Source: an uncultured Dehalococcoidia bacterium (GTDB lineage: Bacteria > Chloroflexota > Dehalococcoidia > Bin125). From it: a DNA stretch of 64,000 bases. The translations under genes were made by a program, and so were the position numbers. Positions 31,984 to 39,846 of the stretch are shown here, one piece after another. The first letter of the stretch is position 1. Each line of letters opens with the position of its first letter. Below the pieces are notes generated by a model. That model made no database searches. It saw only the letters and a program-made list of their open reading frames with translations, and was not told the origin of the DNA. The stretch spans positions 122 through 64,121 of the forward strand of contig CAYFZI010000008.1 of assembly GCA_964347635.1 (NCBI GenBank), written 5' to 3'.

Positions 31984-34092
31984 TTAGGTGTACTGGTCCT
32001 TGATGCTCTGGTCGAGCATGAAGGTCGGCTCGCCGGCCGTGCCCCAGGCGTAGGTGGCCTTGGGCCACATGCGCTGGTTGGCGTTCTCGATCACGCCGCC
32101 GGTGTTGACGTCGACCTGCTTCATCCAGGGGTTGAAGGCGTAGACGCCGGGCGCGCCGGGGTAGGGCACCAGGTACATCTTGGTCGCCATGTAGCGCTGG
32201 ATGTCGTTGATGTACTCGATCCGCTCCTCGAGGTCGAGGAGGCCCTTCTGGATGTCGAACATATCGTGCAGGCGCTCGTCGGTCTCGGGCCCGCCGCCGC
32301 TGACGGCACTCGGGTGGTGCCACTTATCAGCGTTGCCGCCGGTGTCGAGGCCGGCGACCGAGTCTGCGGCGACGCGTCCGGCGGAGCCCCAGTTGTGGCG
32401 GCCGGAAGTGCGGGCGTAGCAGGCGGCGAAGAGGTCCTCGGGGTCCGTCGCGCCGCCGTAGAGCGGGCCGATCGCCAGGTGGCTCGACTCGCCGTCCCAG
32501 CCGTCGGGGAAGTTGCCGCGGAAGATCGAGGCGATGTAGGCCGCGTACTCCTTGAAGAAGAACTCGAACTGGAAGCCGGCCTCGGCGGCGGAGGAGGCGC
32601 AGGCCTCATAGAAGTTGACGACGGTCGCGCCGTAGTCGGCGGTGCCGTGCAGCGTCGCCTGGATCCCGTCCGGGTAGCCGGCCGCGTCCATCAGCTGGCG
32701 GGCCTTGGCGATGTCGCGGTGGAAGAGGATCCCCGAGTCCTCGCCCTCGAAGTTCTCGCCGAACTTATCGAGGTCCTTGGGGTCCATCCAGTAGGGCGGC
32801 AGCTGCGAGATGCCGCTGTGCCACTTGCCGCGCCCGGTGTCGTCGGTCGCGACCAGGATGCCGTCGCGGTCCATCGAGAGCGAGAGCGCCTGGCGCATCC
32901 GCACGTCGTTCCAAGGCGGGATCGAGAAGTTGAAGTAGAACCCGCCGGGCACGGTGTTGAGCGTGTAGACGAGGCCGTCGTCGTCGATCTGCGGCGCCGC
33001 CTCGCGGGCCTGCTTGTAGATCGCGGGCGAGAGCTGCGAGAAGTCCAGCGCGCCGTCGCCGAGCGAGGGGATCAGGACGTTGGTGTCGCCGTTCATCGTG
33101 GCGACGATCCCGTCCATCAAGGGCAGGTTTTGGGAGAGGTTGACGTAGTCGTTGTTGCGGTGCCAGTGGTCGCGGTTGTGGCGCCACTGCAGCGCCACGC
33201 CGGGCTCGAAGCTCTCGAAGATCCAGGGCCCGGAGCCGACCGGCCGCTCGGCGACGGTGCCGTCGTCGACGATCTCGTGCGGGATCAGCCACATGTGCTG
33301 CGAGGAGCCGGCCAGGGTCAGGAAAGGCGCGTGCGGCCGGTGCAGCTTGAAGGTGATCGAGCGGTCCTCGCCGATCGCGAAGCTGTCCACCACGGCGTCC
33401 CAGCCGGCCGAGTTGGCGGAGATCTCCTTGAAGCGGTCGTGCGTCAGCTGGATGTCGTCCATCGTCATCGCGCGGCCGTTGAGGGGGTCGACATCGTGCC
33501 AGTGGATGTCGTCGCGGATGGTGAAGACGTAGGTCGTGTCGTCGGGGATCTCGGGCAGCGAGGCGGCGGCGTCGGGCTCGTACTCGGCGGTGTTGATCGG
33601 GTTGACGCCGTCAGCGCCGGTGATCGCCTGGAGCAGCTTCGAGTAGTGGAAGCCGGCCGGGATCTGGGCGCGGTAGGTGAGGTTCTCGTAGGGGTCGAGG
33701 GTCGGCGGGTCGCCCGAGTAGGGGCCCACGAAGGGCGCCGTGCGCACGCCCCCGATGACCAGATCCGAGGGGGCGGCCGAAACAGTCTGCCCGTCATCCT
33801 GCGGATCGTCCTGCATGGCCTGCGGGTCGTCCTGCATCGCCTGCTGCTCGTCCTGCATGGCCTGCTGCTCGGCCTGCATCGCCTGCTGCTGCATGGACTG
33901 CTGCTGCATCGCCTGCTGCTGCGCCTGCTGAACCTGGGCGGCGGCCTGCTGGCCGCCGTCGTCATCGTCGTCGCCGCAGCCGACCAGGGCGAGGCCGGCC
34001 GCGCCGACGCCGGCGCGCGCTGAGGCTCCGAGCAGGGTGCGCCGCGAGAGGCGCCGCCGCCGCATTCGGCTCCAGTAGTTTCGCTCTTGCAT
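31984..34092 (-). CDS. ABC transporter substrate-binding protein, family 5, Tat/lipoprotein
   Basis: Start MQERNYWSRMRRRRLSRRTLL, with AGGAGG 8 nt upstream. It carries a QQAMQ-repeat low-complexity linker followed by the family-5 SBP fold. Confidence 0.85.
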   Translation of the reverse strand: MQERNYWSRMRRRRLSRRTLLGASARAGVGAAGLALVGCGDDDDDGGQQAAAQVQQAQQQAMQQQSMQQQAMQAEQQAMQDEQQAMQDDPQAMQDDPQDDGQTVSAAPSDLVIGGVRTAPFVGPYSGDPPTLDPYENLTYRAQIPAGFHYSKLLQAITGADGVNPINTAEYEPDAAASLPEIPDDTTYVFTIRDDIHWHDVDPLNGRAMTMDDIQLTHDRFKEISANSAGWDAVVDSFAIGEDRSITFKLHRPHAPFLTLAGSSQHMWLIPHEIVDDGTVAERPVGSGPWIFESFEPGVALQWRHNRDHWHRNNDYVNLSQNLPLMDGIVATMNGDTNVLIPSLGDGALDFSQLSPAIYKQAREAAPQIDDDGLVYTLNTVPGGFYFNFSIPPWNDVRMRQALSLSMDRDGILVATDDTGRGKWHSGISQLPPYWMDPKDLDKFGENFEGEDSGILFHRDIAKARQLMDAAGYPDGIQATLHGTADYGATVVNFYEACASSAAEAGFQFEFFFKEYAAYIASIFRGNFPDGWDGESSHLAIGPLYGGATDPEDLFAACYARTSGRHNWGSAGRVAADSVAGLDTGGNADKWHHPSAVSGGGPETDERLHDMFDIQKGLLDLEERIEYINDIQRYMATKMYLVPYPGAPGVYAFNPWMKQVDVNTGGVIENANQRMWPKATYAWGTAGEPTFMLDQSIKDQYT
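33770..33960 (-). repeat. In-frame tandem coding repeat (QQAMQ linker)
   Basis: Repeated ctgctgcatggcctgctgctc-type units. They translate (minus strand) to the low-complexity linker of the SBP. Confidence 0.6.
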
Positions 34093-34377
34093 GGGTCTGG
34101 TCCTCCTGTCGGGCGTTCGCCCGCTTGTGCGTGCCGCAGCCGCCACGGATCACGCGGCTACGATCGATTGAGGGATCGTACCCCAAGTGTGTCGCTAGAG
34201 TCATTCGCGCGTCGGCGAATATTTCAGCTGTTCGTAGCAGTGTTTTGGCGGCTGCCTCGGCCGGGTGCCGGCGGTGAGCAAGCCGAAGCGGTGCAGCTCT
34301 GAGGTCAGGTCGGAGTAGATCAGGCGTCGGGCGCGCAGAGGCGCCCTGCAGTTCCCGCCGTCTGCGGCGGAGTGCGC

Positions 34378-34734
34378 TGGTGGAGACGGGGGAGAATCGA
34401 ACTCCCCGTCCAGACGGTCACTCCCTGCAGCCTCTACGCGCGTAGCCGCCGCTTGCAGTGTCCCCGTCCGCCGGCGCGTCGGCCTACCGTTACGGCCAGG
34501 TAATTCGGGATGGTCTTTTCGGCGCGGTCCCGTCATCCCGCGCCGAGCAGCCGAACTGTCGGCGCCGCATTCCCTCCGGTCGGCGGCGGATGGGAGGCGG
34601 CGTCGCCGCGGTTAGGCGGCGAGGGCGAGTTCCTTGGGTTCGCCAGTTAAGGAAGGTGGGCGCAGATTAGCGAGGAGCGCCACCTCGGCGCGCAGCCGCA
34701 GATCAGTCGGCCGCTGTCGATCCCTTTCGTCCCC
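34378..34734 (-). ncRNA. ssrA: tmRNA (transfer-messenger RNA)
   Basis: - Minus-strand RNA begins GGGGACGAAAGGGAUCGAC and ends ...GGGGAGUUCGAUUCUCCCCCGUCUCCACCA.
- T-arm: GGGGAG / UUCGAUU / CUCCCC.
- Acceptor stem: GGGGACG pairs with CGUCUCC, including the G3:U pair, followed by discriminator A and CCA.
- Internal tag ORF: ...GGC GAA CCC AAG GAA CUC GCC CUC GCC GCC UAA, reading GEPKELALAA followed by a stop. Confidence 0.85.
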
Positions 34735-34823
34735 CTATGCGCACCGACGTGCGTCGGCCTGGCTTCACAATACTATGCAGCGCCGATAGCTGCTGCGGCA
34801 GTTGACGCGCAGGCTGCAGAGGC

Positions 34824-36392
34824 GTGATCCTGCCGGCCGTGCCCGAGCTGTACCGCAGCGCCTTCGAGATCGATGCACCGCTCCCGCAGGTCAGCGAGAC
34901 GGTGCGCGCGTGGGCCGCAGATCTGTTCGACGGCCCCGAGCCGAAGGGGCTGGACGAGCCGAGCGGCAGCTGGAGGCACGGGGAGCACTCACTCGAAATT
35001 TGGAGCAGCGCGGACGCCGATGCGGCGGTGTTCAATCTGCAGCAGGCGCTGCCCGCCCCGAACGGCGACGGCCGTTGGTGGATTGAGCTCAAGCTCGCGG
35101 CCGAAGGCGGGCCGCTGTTCGCCGAGGCCGCGGTGCGGCACGAGCCCGCCTCCGCTGCAGTCCAGCCAAACGGCCGGGCGAAGGGCTTCGTGAAGTTGAG
35201 ACTGGTGCGCCGGCTAATCGACGCTTATGCCTGCTCCAGCGGCGGACTGCGCTTATCCAACCGCGCGGCGCTGATTGAAGCCGGCCAAGTCGAGCGCTTT
35301 CTTCAGCAAGTGCTGCTCAATCCTGCGCGGCGCCTGCCGGTCGCCGCGGCGTCTCGGCACCGCAGCGGCCAGACCGCGCTCGATGCCGATGCGCTGCAGC
35401 GGGACCTCGCCGGCGCGGCTGTCGTTGCGGTCTGGGACGGCGAGGCGTCGAGGCGGATCAGCGGCGAGCTGGGCCGCCAGTTCGCTTGCTACGACGGGGC
35501 GGTGCGGGTCTATCGGCCGGGGCTGTCGGCGGGCGATTCGCCGGGGCGGCACCGCTTCACGTTGTGGTCGGCGGCGCGCAATCGGAACTTCGCCGAGCCG
35601 CTGCGCACCGCCGCCGCGCGGATCGCGGCCGAATCTGCACCGCCGAGCCGCTGCGATCCGATCGCCGAGCGGATTCGCGGCGCGGAGCATGCACGCCTCG
35701 CTGCGCAGGTCGGCGAGCTGACGCAGGCGTTGGAGTTCCGCGCTGCCGCGGGCGCCCAGCAGCAGCTGGACGTGGACGCAGCACGGGCGGCGATCGCATC
35801 GCAGCAGCTGCAGCTCCAGGACCAGCAGGCGCAGCTGGCCCGGATCGAGGCTGAGAACGAACGGCTCAAAGACAGAAACGCGCTGCTCGAACAGGCGCTC
35901 GACCGCGCTGCTGAGTATCAGGCGGGGCAAGGAGGAGACGCGCAGGAGGTGGACGCTCCAGAGACGGTCGCGGAGGCGGTAGCGCTGGCCGAGGCGCGCT
36001 GCCGCCACCTGGAGCTGTTCGACAACGCTGCGCAGGCTGCGGGCGGTTCGCACTATCAACAGCCGGGTGCAGTCTTCGAGCAGCTGCAGCTGCTGGATCA
36101 GCTGGCGGCGGAGCTCGCGGGCGGATCGGTCAGCGAAACGCAGATCGTGGGCTGGCTGCGGACGCGCGGCGCCGATGTTTCCGGCGAGAGCCAGGACACG
36201 ATGCACCGCTACGGCGACGAGCGGCAATTCCGCAGCCCCGGCGGACACTTAGTGGAGATGCAGCTGCACATCAAGCTGGGCGGCGGACGCGGGCGGGACG
36301 CCAACTGCCGAATCCACTTCGCCTGGAGCGCCGAGCTGGGCAAGCTGCAGGTGGGCCATGTCGGCCGCCACCTGCAGACGAGCCGCAGCTAG
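34824..36392 (+). CDS. Hypothetical 522-aa protein with central coiled coil
   Basis: The track ORF is the only long ORF here. It has an N-terminal globular region, a Q/A/E-rich coiled-coil at about aa 290-370, and a C-terminal region carrying a His-rich motif (HIKLGGGRGRDANCRIHFAW...GHVGRH). No family recognised. Confidence 0.55.
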   Translation: MILPAVPELYRSAFEIDAPLPQVSETVRAWAADLFDGPEPKGLDEPSGSWRHGEHSLEIWSSADADAAVFNLQQALPAPNGDGRWWIELKLAAEGGPLFAEAAVRHEPASAAVQPNGRAKGFVKLRLVRRLIDAYACSSGGLRLSNRAALIEAGQVERFLQQVLLNPARRLPVAAASRHRSGQTALDADALQRDLAGAAVVAVWDGEASRRISGELGRQFACYDGAVRVYRPGLSAGDSPGRHRFTLWSAARNRNFAEPLRTAAARIAAESAPPSRCDPIAERIRGAEHARLAAQVGELTQALEFRAAAGAQQQLDVDAARAAIASQQLQLQDQQAQLARIEAENERLKDRNALLEQALDRAAEYQAGQGGDAQEVDAPETVAEAVALAEARCRHLELFDNAAQAAGGSHYQQPGAVFEQLQLLDQLAAELAGGSVSETQIVGWLRTRGADVSGESQDTMHRYGDERQFRSPGGHLVEMQLHIKLGGGRGRDANCRIHFAWSAELGKLQVGHVGRHLQTSRS

Positions 36393-36652: not shown

Positions 36653-38053
36653 CTAGCGCGGCAGCCACTCTGGTTGATGCGCGCCCGGTTTGACGGTGCG
36701 GCTCCAGGCCGGCTTGGTGTGCGAGAAGTTGATCGGGAACTTGAGCCGCGTGAGCGTGCCGTAGTCCGACTCGACGTCTTCGGAGAACTGCTCGGCCAGC
36801 CGGTAGCCCGCTTCGGGATCCGCCTCGGCCATATCGTGCACGGCGCCCATGCGCAGGAACCAGGCGGCGGTCTGGCCGAGCGAGACCGTCACGTGCCAGG
36901 AGCTGCCCTCCAGGGCGCGGCGCTTGAGCGCTTCGAGCACTCCGTAGGCGCCCCAATAGCCGGTGCAATAGTCGTTCATCGCCATCGCCGGCCCGGCGCC
37001 GATCAGCTGGCCGGGCGGCTGCTGGAGCGCGTGGATGCCGCTCGCGGCCTGTACGTTGCCGTCGAAGCCGCGCTTTTCGCGCCACGGGCCGCGCTGGCCG
37101 TAGGCGTTCTCGGAGACATAAATGATGCCCGGGCGCCGCGCCGCGAGGGCCGCCGGGCCCAACCCGCGCCGCGCCAGACTCTCTGCGCGGTACGACTGCG
37201 AAAATACGTCCGCCTCCTCGATCAGCGTCCACACCGCTGCCGCGCCCTCAGCTGTCTCCAGATCGGCGAAGGCGCGCCGCTTGCCGTGGCCCGTGTCGGC
37301 CTGCGCGGCCTGGATGTCGGGCAGGTGCGGCGAGCCGATATGGAGCACATCGGCGCCCAGCGCCGCGAGCGTGCGGGAGATCGTTGGGCCGGCGAGCACG
37401 CGCGTGGCATCGAGCACGCGCAGGCCGCCGAGCGGCTGCGCGCCGGCGCTCTGCGGCAAGGGGGTCGGCGGCGCATCGCCGATCCGTTCGATCGCGACCG
37501 CCGGCGCGTCGGCGAGCAGCCGGCCCTGCGGATGGCGCCGCCATTCATCCGCCCCGCGGACCACGACGCCGGTCAGCTGCGCATCGACCAGCGCCGCCTC
37601 CAGCTCGGCCGAGCCGCGCGCGGCGATGTGCTCCGCGAGCCGCTCGGGGTCCTCGCAGCCGAGCGCCTGCAGCGTCCGTTCGGCGATATGCGCGAAGCCG
37701 CTCAGCAGGTACAGGTAGCGGCCGTCGCGCGTGGGGAAGATGCCTTGGCCGGGCGCCAGATCGTCCATCAGCACGTCGGTCGCCAGCGCGCCGTTGACCC
37801 GCAGCACCCACATGCTGCTAATCGAGACCAGCGCGTGGCCGACGTCGATCTGCGCCGTCTGGTTCGTCCCGTCCGCGGCGGCGGTGATTTCGTTAACCGC
37901 GCCGGCTACGTTGGCCAGCACCGTCGCGGTGCCGTGGCCAAGCCGCAGCGGCGAGGGGTAGGTCGGGTCATCCGGCCCGCTGAACTCGATCGGGATGCTT
38001 GCCGGCGGTACGCCGGCGGCTGCGGAGACGGCTTCAAGATCGGCGCGCTGCAT
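36653..38053 (-). CDS. CoA-transferase family III (CaiB/BaiF-like), third paralog
   Basis: GGLRVLDATRVLAGPTISRTLAALGADVLHIGSP core. 466 aa, including an N-terminal extension. Confidence 0.8.
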   Translation of the reverse strand: MQRADLEAVSAAAGVPPASIPIEFSGPDDPTYPSPLRLGHGTATVLANVAGAVNEITAAADGTNQTAQIDVGHALVSISSMWVLRVNGALATDVLMDDLAPGQGIFPTRDGRYLYLLSGFAHIAERTLQALGCEDPERLAEHIAARGSAELEAALVDAQLTGVVVRGADEWRRHPQGRLLADAPAVAIERIGDAPPTPLPQSAGAQPLGGLRVLDATRVLAGPTISRTLAALGADVLHIGSPHLPDIQAAQADTGHGKRRAFADLETAEGAAAVWTLIEEADVFSQSYRAESLARRGLGPAALAARRPGIIYVSENAYGQRGPWREKRGFDGNVQAASGIHALQQPPGQLIGAGPAMAMNDYCTGYWGAYGVLEALKRRALEGSSWHVTVSLGQTAAWFLRMGAVHDMAEADPEAGYRLAEQFSEDVESDYGTLTRLKFPINFSHTKPAWSRTVKPGAHQPEWLPR

Positions 38054-38116: not shown

Positions 38117-38641
38117 TCAGGCGTTGCTGCGGCGCAGCGCGCGGGCGATTTCGCGGTTCGTCTCGCGCTCGCGGATGCGGTCGCGCTTTTCGTGCTCGCG
38201 CTTGCCGCGGCCGATCCCGAGCTCCAGCTTGGCCAGCCCGCCCTTGAGGTAGAGCTGCAGCGGCACGAGCGTCAGGCGGCGCTGCTCGAACGCGGCCTCG
38301 AGCTGGTTGATCTCGCGCCGGTGCAGCAGCAGGCGGCGGTCGCGCGTCGGCTCGTGATTGGCCTCGCCGGCGGGCTCGTAGCGCGCGATATGAGCGCCGA
38401 TCAACCACAGCTGGCGGTTGCGCGGGCGGCAGTAGGCCTCCGCGATTGAGCCGCGGCCCAGCCGCAGCGACTTGATCTCGCTGCCGCGCAGCTCGATCCC
38501 GGCCTCGAAGCGCTGCAGGATCTCATACTGCCAGTGCGCGCGCCGGTTGCGGGCGAGGACGCGGTTGTTCTGCCGATCGGGATCGGGCTGGGCCGCGGTC
38601 TCGGCGGCGCGGCGCTGTTTGGAACGCGATCGTGCGGCCAC
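38117..38641 (-). CDS. smpB: SsrA-binding protein SmpB
   Basis: RRAHWQYEILQRFEAGIELRGSEIKSLR...LLLHRREI matches the SmpB core. Confidence 0.85.
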   Translation of the reverse strand: MAARSRSKQRRAAETAAQPDPDRQNNRVLARNRRAHWQYEILQRFEAGIELRGSEIKSLRLGRGSIAEAYCRPRNRQLWLIGAHIARYEPAGEANHEPTRDRRLLLHRREINQLEAAFEQRRLTLVPLQLYLKGGLAKLELGIGRGKREHEKRDRIRERETNREIARALRRSNA

Positions 38642-38703: not shown

Positions 38704-39690
38704 TTACTCGGTATCCGCCAGCGCCGCGTCGACCTTGCCCGCCGTTTCCTCGGACAGGTAGGCCGACCACACGGCGCGGCGGTTGCGCAGGTACCAGAGG
38801 GCGGCGTTCGCGGCGCTTTCGCCCTGCTCCGCCATCCACACTTCGGCCGCAATCTGGCTCTCCTCGTCGAACTCCCAGCGCTCGAGGAACTCCAGCACCT
38901 CTGGGGCGCGTTCGGCCAGGGTCTGGTGCACCGCGATCCTGACCTCGGTCTCCGGGTAGGCGCAGCCTTTGCCGGCCGCCCAGCAGGCGTCGCTGTAGGC
39001 GGGCTCCTCGAGCAGATACAGCTCCAGCGCAGCAGCGGTCGGCGTGGGGCCCCACATGTAGCCGAGCCAGGCATCGCCGCGCTCATAGGCGCGCTCGAGG
39101 CCCTCGAAGAGCGCCGCCGCGCTGTCCGGCGCGGCGAGTTCGACGTGCTCTGTCAGCCCATAGGCGGCGATCTTCGCCGCGTTGTCCTGGGCGCAGAACC
39201 AGCCTTCGACGCAGTCGACCAGACGGGCGCGGCCGCTCGAATCCGGCGCAGCGAAGAGCGCCGCGTAGTCGGGCAGATCGGTCACCGCAACGAGGCCGGG
39301 ATGCTCGTCTTTGACGTACTGCGGAATCACAAAGCCTTGCCAGATCGGCTGCAGGCTCGTGCCGGCGTCAACGATTACCCCCTCCGCCAGCGCCGACTCC
39401 CACACCTCCTGCTGATTGGGCAGCCAGACTTCCAGGGCGACATCGGTCTCGTTGTCGAGCAGCCGCTGCCAAAGCGGCTCGGTGCTGCCGGCGATCGATT
39501 CGGTGGGATAGCCGTAGCCGTGTTCGACGATGAAGCGCACGATCCGTGTCTGGATTTCGGCCGAGGGCCAGTTGAGCTCTGAGAACACGATCGGCTCGCG
39601 CTCGCTGCTGCAGGCCGCGGCCGCGCAGGCCAGCAGCAGTGCGGCGAGCAGCGCCGCGAGCAGCTTGGGCAGTTTGACCACTACCTGATT
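38704..39690 (-). CDS. Glycine betaine/proline-type ABC substrate-binding protein (ProX/OpuAC-like), lipoprotein
   Basis: LLACAAAACSS lipobox. OpuAC-like fold. The start is approximate. Confidence 0.75.
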   Translation of the reverse strand, partial: NQVVVKLPKLLAALLAALLLACAAAACSSEREPIVFSELNWPSAEIQTRIVRFIVEHGYGYPTESIAGSTEPLWQRLLDNETDVALEVWLPNQQEVWESALAEGVIVDAGTSLQPIWQGFVIPQYVKDEHPGLVAVTDLPDYAALFAAPDSSGRARLVDCVEGWFCAQDNAAKIAAYGLTEHVELAAPDSAAALFEGLERAYERGDAWLGYMWGPTPTAAALELYLLEEPAYSDACWAAGKGCAYPETEVRIAVHQTLAERAPEVLEFLERWEFDEESQIAAEVWMAEQGESAANAALWYLRNRRAVWSAYLSEETAGKVDAALADTE

Positions 39691-39846
39691 GAGCACGTTT
39701 TTGCTCCTCTTCCGTGCTCTCCGCGCTGTCCTGGCCCGCACTGCCCTAGATGGCGGCCTGCGTGCGGCGGCGCTTGCGCCAGTCGGTCGGCGCGCCCTGC
39801 GGGATGCAGCGGCTGCGGAGCTCGCGCCGCGGCCGGGCGGCCCCGC

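What the first reader, a model, noticed from the sequence alone, without database searches (positions are those of the whole stretch)
34824..36392. Uncharacterised 522-aa coiled-coil protein immediately adjacent to ssrA
- The large ORF has no recognisable catalytic or NTPase motifs. It has an N-terminal globular region, a Q/A/E-rich coiled coil, and a C-terminal region with a His-rich motif (HIKLGGGRGRDANCRIHFAW...GHVGRH).
- tmRNA loci are classic insertion hot-spots for islands and defence genes.
- Its neighbours (SBP, CoA-transferase, smpB) are unrelated housekeeping genes, so this gene is not explained by context.
- It may be a novel defence or stress protein.
Basis: inference. Interest (0 to 1): 0.6.

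Follow-up and report, generated by a model that had tools for sequence, protein, structure and literature searches.

The report
RelE-domain antiphage protein beside tmRNA
The 'uncharacterised coiled-coil protein' is a divergent member of HEC-07, a known single-protein phage-defence family with an RNA-cutting RelE-like tail, and it sits between the two ribosome-rescue genes ssrA and smpB as an old, vertically kept insertion, not a tmRNA-targeted island.

Summary
**Verdict:** the ORF is real. Its true start is probably GTG 34839, which gives 517 aa.

**Family.**
- It matches PADLOC's HEC-07 models (E=1.3e-39, aa 127-520).
- Its family profile matches the tested P. aeruginosa HEC-07 protein (hhalign probability 99.4%).
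- HEC-07 is a one-gene antiphage system described in a 2024 preprint.

**Structure.**
- AlphaFold2 (pLDDT 92.7) gives an N-terminal beta-sheet domain, an alpha/beta middle domain, one 89-residue helix and a C-terminal domain.
- The best PDB matches of the C-terminal domain are nearly all RelE/HigB/ParE toxins. Each match is weak on its own (best E=1.4e-2).
- Some relatives replace this domain with a HEPN RNase, which fits a sensor-plus-effector design.

**Location.**
- The gene lies on the 5' side of ssrA, not at the 3' integration site. There is no att repeat and no composition shift.
- Four other Dehalococcoidia genomes share the ssrA-gene-smpB order.
- The protein evolves much faster than its neighbours (42-48% against 56-80% identity).
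- Other homologs sit elsewhere, one of them in a clear defence island.

**Rating:** a new member of a known kind, of modest interest.

**Open idea:** a functional tie between a RelE-type nuclease and tmRNA/SmpB.

The parts
34839..36392 (+). HEC-07-family gene with the most likely start (GTG 34839; 517 aa plus stop). The longest ORF begins at 34824.
   Evidence: - ORF listing.
- The start codon aligns with the ATG of L001, L009 and L010.
- PADLOC HEC-07 E=1.3e-39.
- 1848 homologous representatives.
34839..35183 (+). N-terminal beta-sheet-plus-helix domain (aa 6-120). It is the most variable part and the putative sensor or specificity module.
   Evidence: - AF2 elements E8-16, H20-34 and five strands to aa 107.
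- Only 18-42% identity to homologs.
- Weak Foldseek matches to START/Bet v 1-like folds, E about 1e-2.
- Aligned to the N-terminal domain of the tested HEC-07 by hhalign.
35184..35648 (+). Alpha/beta middle domain (aa 121-275). It carries the family's most conserved motifs: R169-x-x-P172 and G225-A-x-R228-x-Y230-x-P232, with H243 less conserved (87%). It has no CxxC.
   Evidence: - AF2 model.
- Conservation across 107 sequences.
- 41% identity over 74 aa to the tested P. aeruginosa HEC-07, E=7e-11.
- hhalign probability 99.4%.
35649..35948 (+). Single long helix (aa 277-365) plus a disordered linker (aa 361-375). It is a coiled-coil stalk of variable length.
   Evidence: - AF2 H277-365, with pLDDT below 50 at aa 361-375.
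- Length varies among homologs: 10 to 37 residues shorter, or about 300 aa longer in the 830-860 aa variants.
- Only coiled-coil noise in Pfam and PDB.
35949..36389 (+). C-terminal RelE/ParE-like (BECR-fold) putative RNase effector domain (aa 376-522).
   Evidence: - Domain model pLDDT 95.9, pTM 0.91.
- Foldseek top PDB hits are the PfiAT complex, Mtb RelE1, HigB2, E. coli RelE and ribosome-bound RelE.
- PADLOC NsnC effector match E=1e-18 at aa 377-520.
- It is the most conserved domain, at 32-62% identity.
36267..36269 (+). Codon for H482. It is invariant in 107 of 107 family members and is the putative catalytic His in strand beta-2 (HIKL).
36369..36371 (+). Codon for H516, conserved in 95% of the family. 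It is the putative counterpart of HEC-07 H543, and both lie six residues from the C-terminus.
   Evidence: H543 is from the preprint. The 549-aa length of the tested protein is from Table S2.
34378..34734 (-). ssrA (tmRNA), transcribed divergently from the gene.
   Evidence: ARAGORN; Rfam RF00023, 111.8 bits.
34735..34838 (.). Short divergent intergenic region. It must hold both the ssrA promoter and the HEC-07-like gene's promoter. A -10-like element upstream of ssrA is conserved in all five syntenic loci.
   Evidence: Alignment A4. The sigma-70 consensus scan found nothing.
36653..38053 (-). Family III CoA-transferase. It is a lineage-specific extra gene in the same smpB-ssrA gap and is not part of the system.
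   Evidence: Pfam PF02515. It is absent from L001, L009, L010 and L012.
38117..38641 (-). smpB, the partner of tmRNA. It lies on the same strand as ssrA and upstream of it. The ancestral smpB-ssrA tandem is split by the insertion.
   Evidence: Pfam PF01668. A tight smpB-ssrA tandem without the gene occurs in L026, L028, L029 and L042.

Best explanation
**What it is.** The gene encodes a HEC-07-family protein: a self-contained, single-polypeptide antiphage (abortive-infection type) RNase.

**Proposed mechanism.**
1. The variable N-terminal domain and the highly conserved alpha/beta middle domain act as the sensor and regulatory part.
2. A long helix acts as a stalk or dimerisation element.
3. 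The C-terminal RelE-like domain is the effector.
4. On a phage cue the effector is released from autoinhibition.
5. Like RelE, HigB, YafQ and the CARF-RelE effector Cami1, it cleaves mRNA in the ribosomal A site, with H482 and H516 as general acid and base. This stops translation in the infected cell.

**History in this lineage.** In this Dehalococcoidia lineage the gene was inserted, on the opposite strand, into the ancestral smpB-ssrA tandem. It has since been inherited vertically while diverging fast.

**Shown here:**
- family membership;
- domain architecture;
- residue conservation;
- synteny;
- the effector swap in relatives.

**Taken from the literature:** antiphage activity of a Pseudomonas homolog, and RelE chemistry.

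**Inferred:** ribosome dependence, the trigger, autoinhibition, and activity in this organism.
For: **Family membership**
- PADLOC HEC-07 model PDLC04161 matches at E=1.3e-39, aa 127-520 against profile positions 146-551 of 553. Three further HEC-07 models also match.
- The 107-sequence family profile matches the tested HEC-07 (WP_033943166.1, first 399 aa) by hhalign at probability 99.4%, E=1e-21, across the N-terminal and middle domains.
- Direct BLASTP gives 41% identity over 74 aa, E=7e-11.

**Published description of HEC-07**
- The preprint describes an N-terminal domain, a thioredoxin-like domain without CxxC, and a C-terminal RelE-like domain with a conserved His.
- It lists HEC-07 among the seven of nine candidates that reduced plaquing.

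**Structure**
- The AF2 model has the same four-part layout.
- Eleven of the 12 best Foldseek PDB hits for the C-terminal domain are chains of RelE/HigB/ParE toxin-antitoxin structures.
- The domain's topology is beta-alpha-alpha-(insert)-beta-beta-beta.

**Other support**
- The C-terminal domain also matches Menshen NsnC effector models. Published analysis classifies most NsnC C-terminal domains as BECR/RelE-type nucleases.
- H482 is invariant and H516 is 95% conserved.
- L015 and L018 carry the same scaffold fused to a Swt1-like HEPN RNase instead, E=7e-22.
- Domain identity to homologs: N-terminal 18-42%, C-terminal 32-62%.
- No partner gene is conserved across contexts.
- One homolog lies among type I R-M, PIN, HicAB, ThsB-TIR and transposase genes.
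- Precedent for a sensor-RelE fusion in defence: Cami1.
Against: - No sequence-level link to canonical RelE, HigB or ParE was found.
  - Pfam found nothing.
  - PDB sequence searches found nothing.
  - hhalign against single RelE and HigB sequences found nothing.
- Apart from the two histidines, RelE-type basic residues (K484, R496, R515) are conserved only in the close subfamily.
- The antiphage evidence comes from one preprint. It rests on a Pseudomonas protein of about 25-30% identity tested in E. coli, and no catalytic mutant of HEC-07 is reported in the text I read.
- In this genome the gene is not in a defence island. It is syntenic across a clade, which is unusual for an accessory defence gene.
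- The preprint calls the N-terminal domain AdoMetDC-like, whereas Foldseek here gives weak START-like hits.
Confidence: 0.7

Rival explanations
1. The gene is functionally coupled to trans-translation. In this clade a RelE-type A-site nuclease was recruited next to ssrA and smpB because its cleavage products (non-stop ribosome complexes) are tmRNA-SmpB substrates. The locus would then work as a stress or quality-control module, or as a nuclease with its reset system, not primarily as phage defence.
For: - The gene sits exactly between smpB and ssrA in five loci from at least four genomes whose housekeeping proteins have diverged to 56-80% identity.
- It shares a 90-200 bp divergent control region with ssrA.
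- RelE cuts mRNA at the A site, and A-site cleavage has been linked to trans-translation (review PMC3985003).
Against: - The linkage is confined to one clade and is consistent with a single insertion event.
- At least 12 other lineages carry family members away from ssrA and smpB.
- Lineages with a tight smpB-ssrA tandem lack the gene.
- The gene is the fastest-evolving one in the block.
- In a rough NJ tree the ssrA-linked copies are not cleanly monophyletic.
- The tested homolog acts against phages.
Confidence: 0.1
2. It is cargo of a tmRNA-targeted genomic island or integrative element.
For: - tmRNA genes are known integration sites (established knowledge; K. P. Williams, 'Traffic at the tmRNA gene', recalled from memory).
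- The gene is an insertion relative to the tight smpB-ssrA tandems seen elsewhere.
- The same gap gained a CoA-transferase in this genome.
Against: - The gene lies at the 5' end of ssrA, while integrases target the 3' end.
- No second copy of the ssrA 3' end exists in the 64 kb window.
- GC is 0.68-0.73, the same as the surroundings.
- The flanking genes tested are transporters, SmpB, OpuAC and FTHFS, with no integrase among them.
- The arrangement is conserved in four diverged genomes.
Confidence: 0.04
3. The C-terminal domain is not an A-site mRNase. It could be a ParE-like non-nucleolytic toxin (for example a gyrase poison), a ribosome-independent RNase of the wider BECR fold, or merely a binding module. 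In that case the protein kills or arrests cells by another route.
For: - The best Foldseek hits are chains of the PfiAT complex, not RelE itself.
- All the matches are weak.
- RelE's lysine and arginine constellation is not conserved family-wide.
- A protein of about 517 aa with a long stalk may have restricted access to the A site.
Against: - Two near-invariant histidines sit on the beta-sheet face (H482 in beta-2, H516 just after the last strand). They resemble the His-dependent RelE subfamilies (YafQ, YoeB, HP0892). This comparison is from my own knowledge and from the preprint's statement.
- The replacement by a HEPN RNase in relatives points to RNA cleavage as the output.
- Cami1 shows that a fused RelE domain can still reach the A site.
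Confidence: 0.12

Closest known systems
HEC-07 (Hma-embedded candidate 07; PADLOC models PDLC04158-04161; tested protein P. aeruginosa NCTC13717 WP_033943166.1; preprint 10.1101/2024.01.29.577857)
   Same: - Full-length architecture: N-terminal beta-rich domain, alpha/beta middle domain without CxxC, helical linker, and C-terminal RelE-like domain with a conserved His six residues from the end.
- It is a single-gene system.
- HMM E=1.3e-39; hhalign probability 99.4%.
   Different: - Only about 25-30% identity overall, with a local maximum of 41% in the middle domain.
- It comes from a high-GC Dehalococcoidia MAG, not a proteobacterium.
- It is not embedded in an Hma, BREX or R-M system. It lies between ssrA and smpB and is syntenic across a clade.
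- The PADLOC match does not cover the N-terminal 126 aa, although the profile comparison does.
- Its activity is untested.
Type II toxin-antitoxin RelE/HigB/YafQ/YoeB/ParE superfamily toxins (e.g. PDB 4FXE, 4V7K, 5JA8, 9G12, 9W3A, 4LTT)
   Same: - The predicted core topology is beta-alpha-alpha-beta-beta-beta.
- These are the top structural neighbours.
- Local motif resemblance by eye, from my recollection of E. coli RelE: HIKL against KIKL, CRIHF against YRLVY, VGRH against VGKR.
- The His near the C-terminus is in the position of the general acid/base in YoeB, YafQ and HP0892.
   Different: - No detectable sequence-profile homology.
- There is no antitoxin gene.
- The domain is fused to about 375 aa of upstream domains.
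- It has extra helices: one before beta-1 and a 30-residue insert between alpha-2 and beta-2.
- The structural scores are marginal.
Menshen NsnC effectors (NsnABC; PMC12065111)
   Same: The C-terminal 145 aa match NsnC HMMs at E=1e-18. The same BECR/RelE-type nuclease module is used as the toxic output of a defence system.
   Different: - The match is limited to the C-terminal module.
- The match does not cover the NsnC N-terminal part, where the inactive-PIN domain lies.
- No NsnA (ParB-DUF262) or NsnB (ABC ATPase) genes are nearby.
Cami1 (CARF-RelE) type III CRISPR ancillary effector
   Same: It works alike in principle. [quoted passage not shown]
   Different: - The sensor is not a CARF domain.
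- There is no CRISPR or cyclic-oligoadenylate context.
- No homology was shown beyond the fold class.

Membership tests
HEC-07 defence family | Significant match to the family's HMMs over most of the protein | tested here: met
   PDLC04161 matches at E=1.3e-39 (aa 127-520 against 146-551 of 553). PDLC04159, 04160 and 04158 also match.
HEC-07 defence family | Homology to the experimentally tested protein, including the N-terminal and middle domains | tested here: met
   - hhalign of the family profile against WP_033943166.1 (first 399 aa) gives probability 99.4%, E=1e-21, columns 28-305 against 20-298.
- BLASTP E=7e-11.
- The C-terminal 150 aa of the tested protein were not available, because the table text is truncated.
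HEC-07 defence family | Architecture: N-terminal domain, thioredoxin-like domain lacking CxxC, and C-terminal RelE-like domain | tested here: met
   - The AF2 model shows the four modules.
- The sequence has no CxxC motif anywhere (translation).
- The C-terminal domain's nearest PDB folds are RelE/HigB/ParE toxins.
- The fold identity of the N-terminal and middle domains (AdoMetDC-like, thioredoxin-like) was not confirmed here. Only weak START-like hits were found.
HEC-07 defence family | Conserved C-terminal histidine (H543 in the tested protein) | tested here: met
   H516 is conserved in 102 of 107 sequences, and H482 in 107 of 107. Equivalence of H516 and H543 is inferred, because both lie six residues from the C-terminus.
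HEC-07 defence family | Stand-alone gene with no obligatory partner | tested here: met
   The neighbours differ in every context examined.
HEC-07 defence family | Protects against phage | not testable with these tools
   The only evidence is the preprint's plaque assays on the Pseudomonas homolog in E. coli.
RelE/ParE toxin superfamily (type II TA toxins) | RelE/ParE fold of the domain | tested here: inconclusive
   - Eleven of the 12 best Foldseek PDB hits are RelE/HigB/ParE-system chains.
- The scores are weak: E is 1.4e-2 to about 1, and TM normalised to the target is 0.38-0.51.
RelE/ParE toxin superfamily (type II TA toxins) | Sequence-profile membership (Pfam RelE, HigB, YoeB, ParE or Gp49 families) | tested here: not met
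   There is no Pfam hit for the protein or for 46 C-terminal domains. hhalign against RelE and HigB gives probability below 1%.
RelE/ParE toxin superfamily (type II TA toxins) | Adjacent cognate antitoxin gene | tested here: not met
   No small partner ORF is conserved. The gene is flanked by ssrA and by CoA-transferase or smpB.
Menshen NsnC | NsnC-type C-terminal nuclease module | tested here: met
   PDLC03912 matches at E=1e-18, aa 377-520 against 180-313 of 316.
Menshen NsnC | N-terminal inactive-PIN domain, and nsnA and nsnB genes alongside | tested here: not met
   The match covers only the C-terminal part of the NsnC models. The neighbours are transporters, CoA-transferase and SmpB.
ssrA-integrated genomic island | Located at the 3' end of ssrA and bounded by a direct repeat of that end | tested here: not met
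   The gene is on the 5' side. The 33-nt ssrA 3' end occurs once in the window, even allowing 3 mismatches.
ssrA-integrated genomic island | Integrase or mobility genes, atypical composition, patchy presence among close relatives | tested here: not met
   - The eight flanking proteins are housekeeping.
- GC matches the surroundings.
- The gene is present at the same place in L001, L009, L010 and L012.
- Close relatives that lack the gene could not be sampled.

The most novel reading that the evidence does not exclude
The conserved placement of a RelE-type A-site nuclease gene between smpB and ssrA, sharing a short divergent control region with ssrA, may be functional. In that case tmRNA-SmpB would serve as the built-in reset or antidote, or as a co-regulated partner, of an antitoxin-less immune nuclease. 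That would link phage defence and ribosome rescue in one locus.
Probability: 0.1. Interest if true: 0.6.

Novelty: new member of a known kind. Interest (0 to 1): 0.3.

Why it matters
- It assigns a hypothetical protein, for which the source record gave no name, to HEC-07, a defence family with one experimentally tested member. It also identifies the likely active-site histidines.
- It extends HEC-07 from Proteobacteria into high-GC Dehalococcoidia, a phylum with almost no studied phage defence.
- The HEC-07 scaffold carries interchangeable RNase effectors (RelE-like or HEPN). This supports a modular sensor-effector design.
- It corrects an attractive but wrong inference, that a gene next to tmRNA must be island cargo.
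- The smpB-gene-ssrA arrangement gives a cheap, testable hypothesis about interplay between A-site nucleases and trans-translation.

Tried and rejected
**Sequence searches that found nothing useful**
- Pfam, NCBIfam and PDB sequence searches of the full protein gave only coiled-coil noise.
- Pfam and PDB profile searches of the C-terminal domain alone gave nothing meaningful.

**Structure searches**
- Foldseek with the full-length model gave only weak START/Bet v 1-like hits from the N-terminal domain, and nothing for the middle domain.
- BFVD viral structures gave no meaningful hit.

**Context searches**
- The word-indexed homolog search, even with a profile, found only 6-7 relatives. The exhaustive search was needed.
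- The metagenome scan with SmpB was meant to find close relatives lacking the gene. It returned only SmpB at 39-55% identity. That was useful for the ancestral smpB-ssrA tandem but not for a fine presence/absence profile.
- A bulk scan of neighbour ORFs hit AbiLi, PDC-M38A, an AriA-like ATPase and pAgo. Three follow-up scans missed them. Only the HEC-09-like gene was placed, in L018.

**Other**
- The sigma-70 promoter and terminator scan of the locus found nothing.
Full report
**1. Observation**

The ORF at 34824-36392 (+, 522 aa, GTG start) exists as described. The tmRNA gene lies at 34378-34734 on the minus strand. ARAGORN finds it with tag GEPKELALAA, and Rfam RF00023 scores 111.8 bits. The two genes are divergent and about 90-105 bp apart.

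Pfam confirms the neighbours:
- two ABC permeases and an SBP_bac_5 binding protein to the left;
- a family III CoA-transferase, SmpB, an OpuAC binding protein and formate-tetrahydrofolate ligase (FTHFS) to the right.

Pfam, NCBIfam and PDB sequence searches of the protein return only coiled-coil noise.

The gene is real. An exhaustive HMMER search finds 1848 representative homologs at E<=1e-3, of which 44 are at E<=1e-30. AlphaFold2 with a 107-sequence alignment gives mean pLDDT 92.7.

One correction concerns the start. Homologs begin at the residue equivalent to codon 6. The GTG at 34839 aligns exactly with the ATG of three syntenic orthologs. The protein is therefore most likely 517 aa.

**2. 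Identity**

PADLOC's defence-protein library gives a strong, nearly full-length hit to HEC-07: PDLC04161 at E=1.3e-39, aa 127-520 against profile positions 146-551 of 553. Three more HEC-07 models also match. Menshen NsnC effector models match the C-terminus at E=1e-18, aa 377-520.

- It is a single protein.
- Its N-terminal domain is AdoMetDC-like.
- Its second domain is thioredoxin-like without CxxC.
- Its C-terminal domain resembles the H. pylori RelE-family toxin HP0892 and carries a conserved histidine, H543.
- Seven of the nine candidates, all except HEC-01 and HEC-09, reduced plaquing in E. coli.

Table S2 of the preprint names the tested protein as P. aeruginosa NCTC13717 WP_033943166.1. 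It is 549 aa, but the stored text is cut at 399 aa. Two comparisons link the window protein to it:
- the family profile matches it by hhalign at probability 99.4%, E=1e-21, across both the N-terminal and middle domains;
- direct BLASTP gives 41% identity over 74 aa, E=7e-11.

Membership of the HEC-07 family is therefore well supported.

**3. Anatomy**

The full-length model shows these parts:
- a beta-alpha-beta5 N-terminal domain, aa 8-107;
- an alpha/beta middle domain, aa 126-270;
- a disordered linker, aa 361-375;
- a C-terminal alpha+beta domain, aa 382-514.

The C-terminal domain modelled alone has pLDDT 95.9 and pTM 0.91. Foldseek against the PDB returns, as 11 of its 12 best hits, chains from RelE/ParE-superfamily toxin-antitoxin structures:
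- the PfiAT complex (E=1.4e-2, probability 0.77);
- M. tuberculosis RelE1;
- V. cholerae-type HigB2;
- E. coli RelE (TM 0.51 normalised to the target);
- E. coli HigB.

Ribosome-bound RelE and T. thermophilus RelE appear further down the list.

Conservation across 107 family members:
- H482, P172 and G514 are invariant;
- H516 is 95% conserved;
- R169, G225, R228, Y230 and P232 in the middle domain are at least 95% conserved.

H516 lies six residues from the C-terminus, as H543 does in the 549-aa tested protein. That equivalence is inferred.

By eye, and from my recollection of the E. coli RelE sequence, HIKL, CRIHF and VGRH line up with RelE's KIKL (K52, K54), YRLVY (R61) and VGKR (R81). This is a lead, not a test.

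**4. Modularity**

Per-domain identity of the window protein to its homologs:

| Domain | Identity |
|---|---|
| N-terminal | 18-42% |
| Middle | 30-50% |
| Helix | 14-44% |
| C-terminal | 32-62% |

This is the pattern expected for a variable sensor joined to a conserved effector.

Two Dehalococcoidia relatives, L015 (611 aa) and L018 (585 aa), keep the HEC-07 scaffold (PDLC04161 positions 141-400). In place of the RelE-like domain they carry a Swt1-like HEPN RNase domain (PF18731, E=7e-22, 78 bits against a cutoff of 27.5).

Other relatives of 830-860 aa keep the RelE/NsnC-like end but have a coiled coil about 300 aa longer.

Swapping one RNase for another on the same scaffold is independent support that RNA cleavage is the output.

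**5. Genomic context**

The close subfamily is confined to Dehalococcoidia/Chloroflexota MAGs.

Five loci share the same gene order: the window, L001, L009, L010 and L012. L001 and L010 carry identical proteins. The order is ABC permeases, SBP, ssrA(-), gene(+), smpB(-), a hypothetical gene and FTHFS.

| Protein | Identity to the window |
|---|---|
| FTHFS | 77-80% |
| SmpB | 64-69% |
| ABC permeases | 64-72% |
| SBP | 56-61% |
| HEC-07-like protein | 42-48% |

The HEC-07-like gene is therefore the fastest-evolving gene in the block.

In four more distant lineages (SmpB about 50% identical), ssrA follows smpB within about 50 bp and the gene is absent. The gene is thus an insertion, on the opposite strand, that split an ancestral smpB-ssrA tandem. 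In the window the same gap also gained a CoA-transferase that the other four loci lack.

Evidence against a tmRNA-targeted island:
- the gene is on the 5' side of ssrA;
- the ssrA 3' end is not repeated anywhere in the window;
- GC content matches the surroundings;
- none of the eight flanking genes tested is a mobility gene.

Other homologs of 35-46% identity occupy unrelated sites:
- L003 lies among type I R-M genes, a PIN protein, HicAB, a ThsB-TIR gene and several transposases, which is a clear defence island;
- L004 and L007 lie between acetyl-CoA synthetase and an HTH_17 gene;
- L006, L014 and L021 lie among metabolic genes.

A bulk PADLOC scan of 78 neighbour ORFs from seven further loci hit AbiLi, PDC-M38A, HEC-09, an AriA/GajA-like ATPase and pAgo. 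Only the HEC-09-like gene could be placed, in L018 about 6 kb from the HEPN variant.

In a rough NJ tree the ssrA-linked copies are not cleanly monophyletic, because L012 groups with L021. The defence-island copy is as close to the window protein as the syntenic copies are. Some replacement or transfer among lineages cannot be excluded.

**6. Mechanism**

The best-supported model has five steps.
1. The protein is a self-contained abortive-infection type effector.
2. The N-terminal and middle domains sense a phage cue.
3. The long helix serves as a stalk or dimerisation element.
4. The RelE-like domain is held inactive without any antitoxin, possibly by its extra helices or by the upstream domains.
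5. On activation it cleaves mRNA, most likely in the ribosomal A site, with H482 and H516 as acid and base. This arrests translation.

What is shown: family membership, architecture, conservation, the effector swap and the context. What comes from the literature: phage protection by a homolog, RelE's A-site cleavage, and a working precedent for a sensor-RelE fusion in immunity, Cami1. What is inferred: ribosome dependence, the trigger, autoinhibition, and activity in this organism.

**7. Rivals**

- **A functional tie to trans-translation.** The position between smpB and ssrA is striking, because A-site cleavage creates tmRNA substrates. However, the linkage is limited to one clade and fits a single insertion event. 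I give it about 0.1.
- **Island cargo at ssrA.** This is essentially refuted.
- **A non-RelE activity of the C-terminal domain**, either ParE-like or ribosome-independent. This is not excluded, given the weak structural scores. I give it about 0.12.

**8. Verdict**

It is partly wrong: the protein is not novel, the gene is not an ssrA island, and the fold is not HNH or PD-(D/E)xK.

This is a new and rather divergent member of a known kind. Interest is modest. What remains interesting is the first look at HEC-07 in Chloroflexota, the HEPN/RelE effector polymorphism, and the testable idea of coupling between the nuclease and tmRNA-SmpB.

Noticed in passing
L015:9881-11713 and L018:9590-11344: HEC-07-like scaffold (N-terminal, middle and helix regions) fused to a Swt1-like HEPN domain (PF18731, E about 7e-22) in place of the RelE-like domain. 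This effector-swapped variant is not mentioned in the parts of the HEC-07 preprint I read.
   Followed up: partly
L016:9890-12469; proteins P0034, P0038, P0095: Variants of 830-860 aa keep the RelE/NsnC-like C-terminus but have a coiled coil about 300 aa longer. The long coiled coil gives weak LmuB/JetC/SMC-like matches.
   Followed up: partly
window 36653-38053 (-): A family III CoA-transferase lies between the HEC-07-like gene and smpB only in this genome. The four syntenic loci have smpB ending 19-50 bp after the gene. The smpB-ssrA gap therefore gained a second single gene.
   Followed up: partly
window 38704-39741 (-): The OpuAC glycine-betaine-binding gene next to smpB is present in the window and in L012, but absent from L001, L009 and L010. 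This is another single-gene presence/absence difference in the block.
   Followed up: no
window ~33800-33970 (-), within SBP gene 31984-34146: The SBP_bac_5 protein carries a Q-rich, quasi-repetitive linker near its N-terminus (QQAMQQQSMQQQAMQAEQQAMQDEQQAMQDDPQAMQDD...). The SBP gene is duplicated in tandem in L010 and L012 but is single here.
   Followed up: no
window ~34760-34780 (intergenic, ssrA upstream): An A/T-rich element is conserved in all five syntenic loci about 30-45 nt upstream of the ssrA 5' end (CACAATACTA here, CAATATAGC in the others). It reads as a -10-like box on the ssrA strand. The consensus promoter scan did not call it.
   Followed up: partly
L003:1-21506: The homolog P0003 lies in a dense defence and mobile region. 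It contains HicAB, type I R-M (HsdR, HsdS) with a PIN_4 protein, ThsB-TIR with an 8xMP gene, several IS transposases and a P63C-domain gene.
   Followed up: no
L018:17362-18054: A HEC-09-like NYN-domain gene lies about 6 kb from the HEPN-variant HEC-07-like gene (tblastn 32% identity, E=1.5e-24). The bulk neighbour scan also hit AbiLi, PDC-M38A, an AriA/GajA-like ATPase and pAgo, but I could not place those hits in specific loci.
   Followed up: partly
L004:11470-11688 and L007:5516-5734: In the acetyl-CoA-synthetase context, the homolog is followed on the opposite strand by a small HTH_17 (excisionase/MerR-like) gene. This could be a remnant of a mobile element or a regulator.
   Followed up: no
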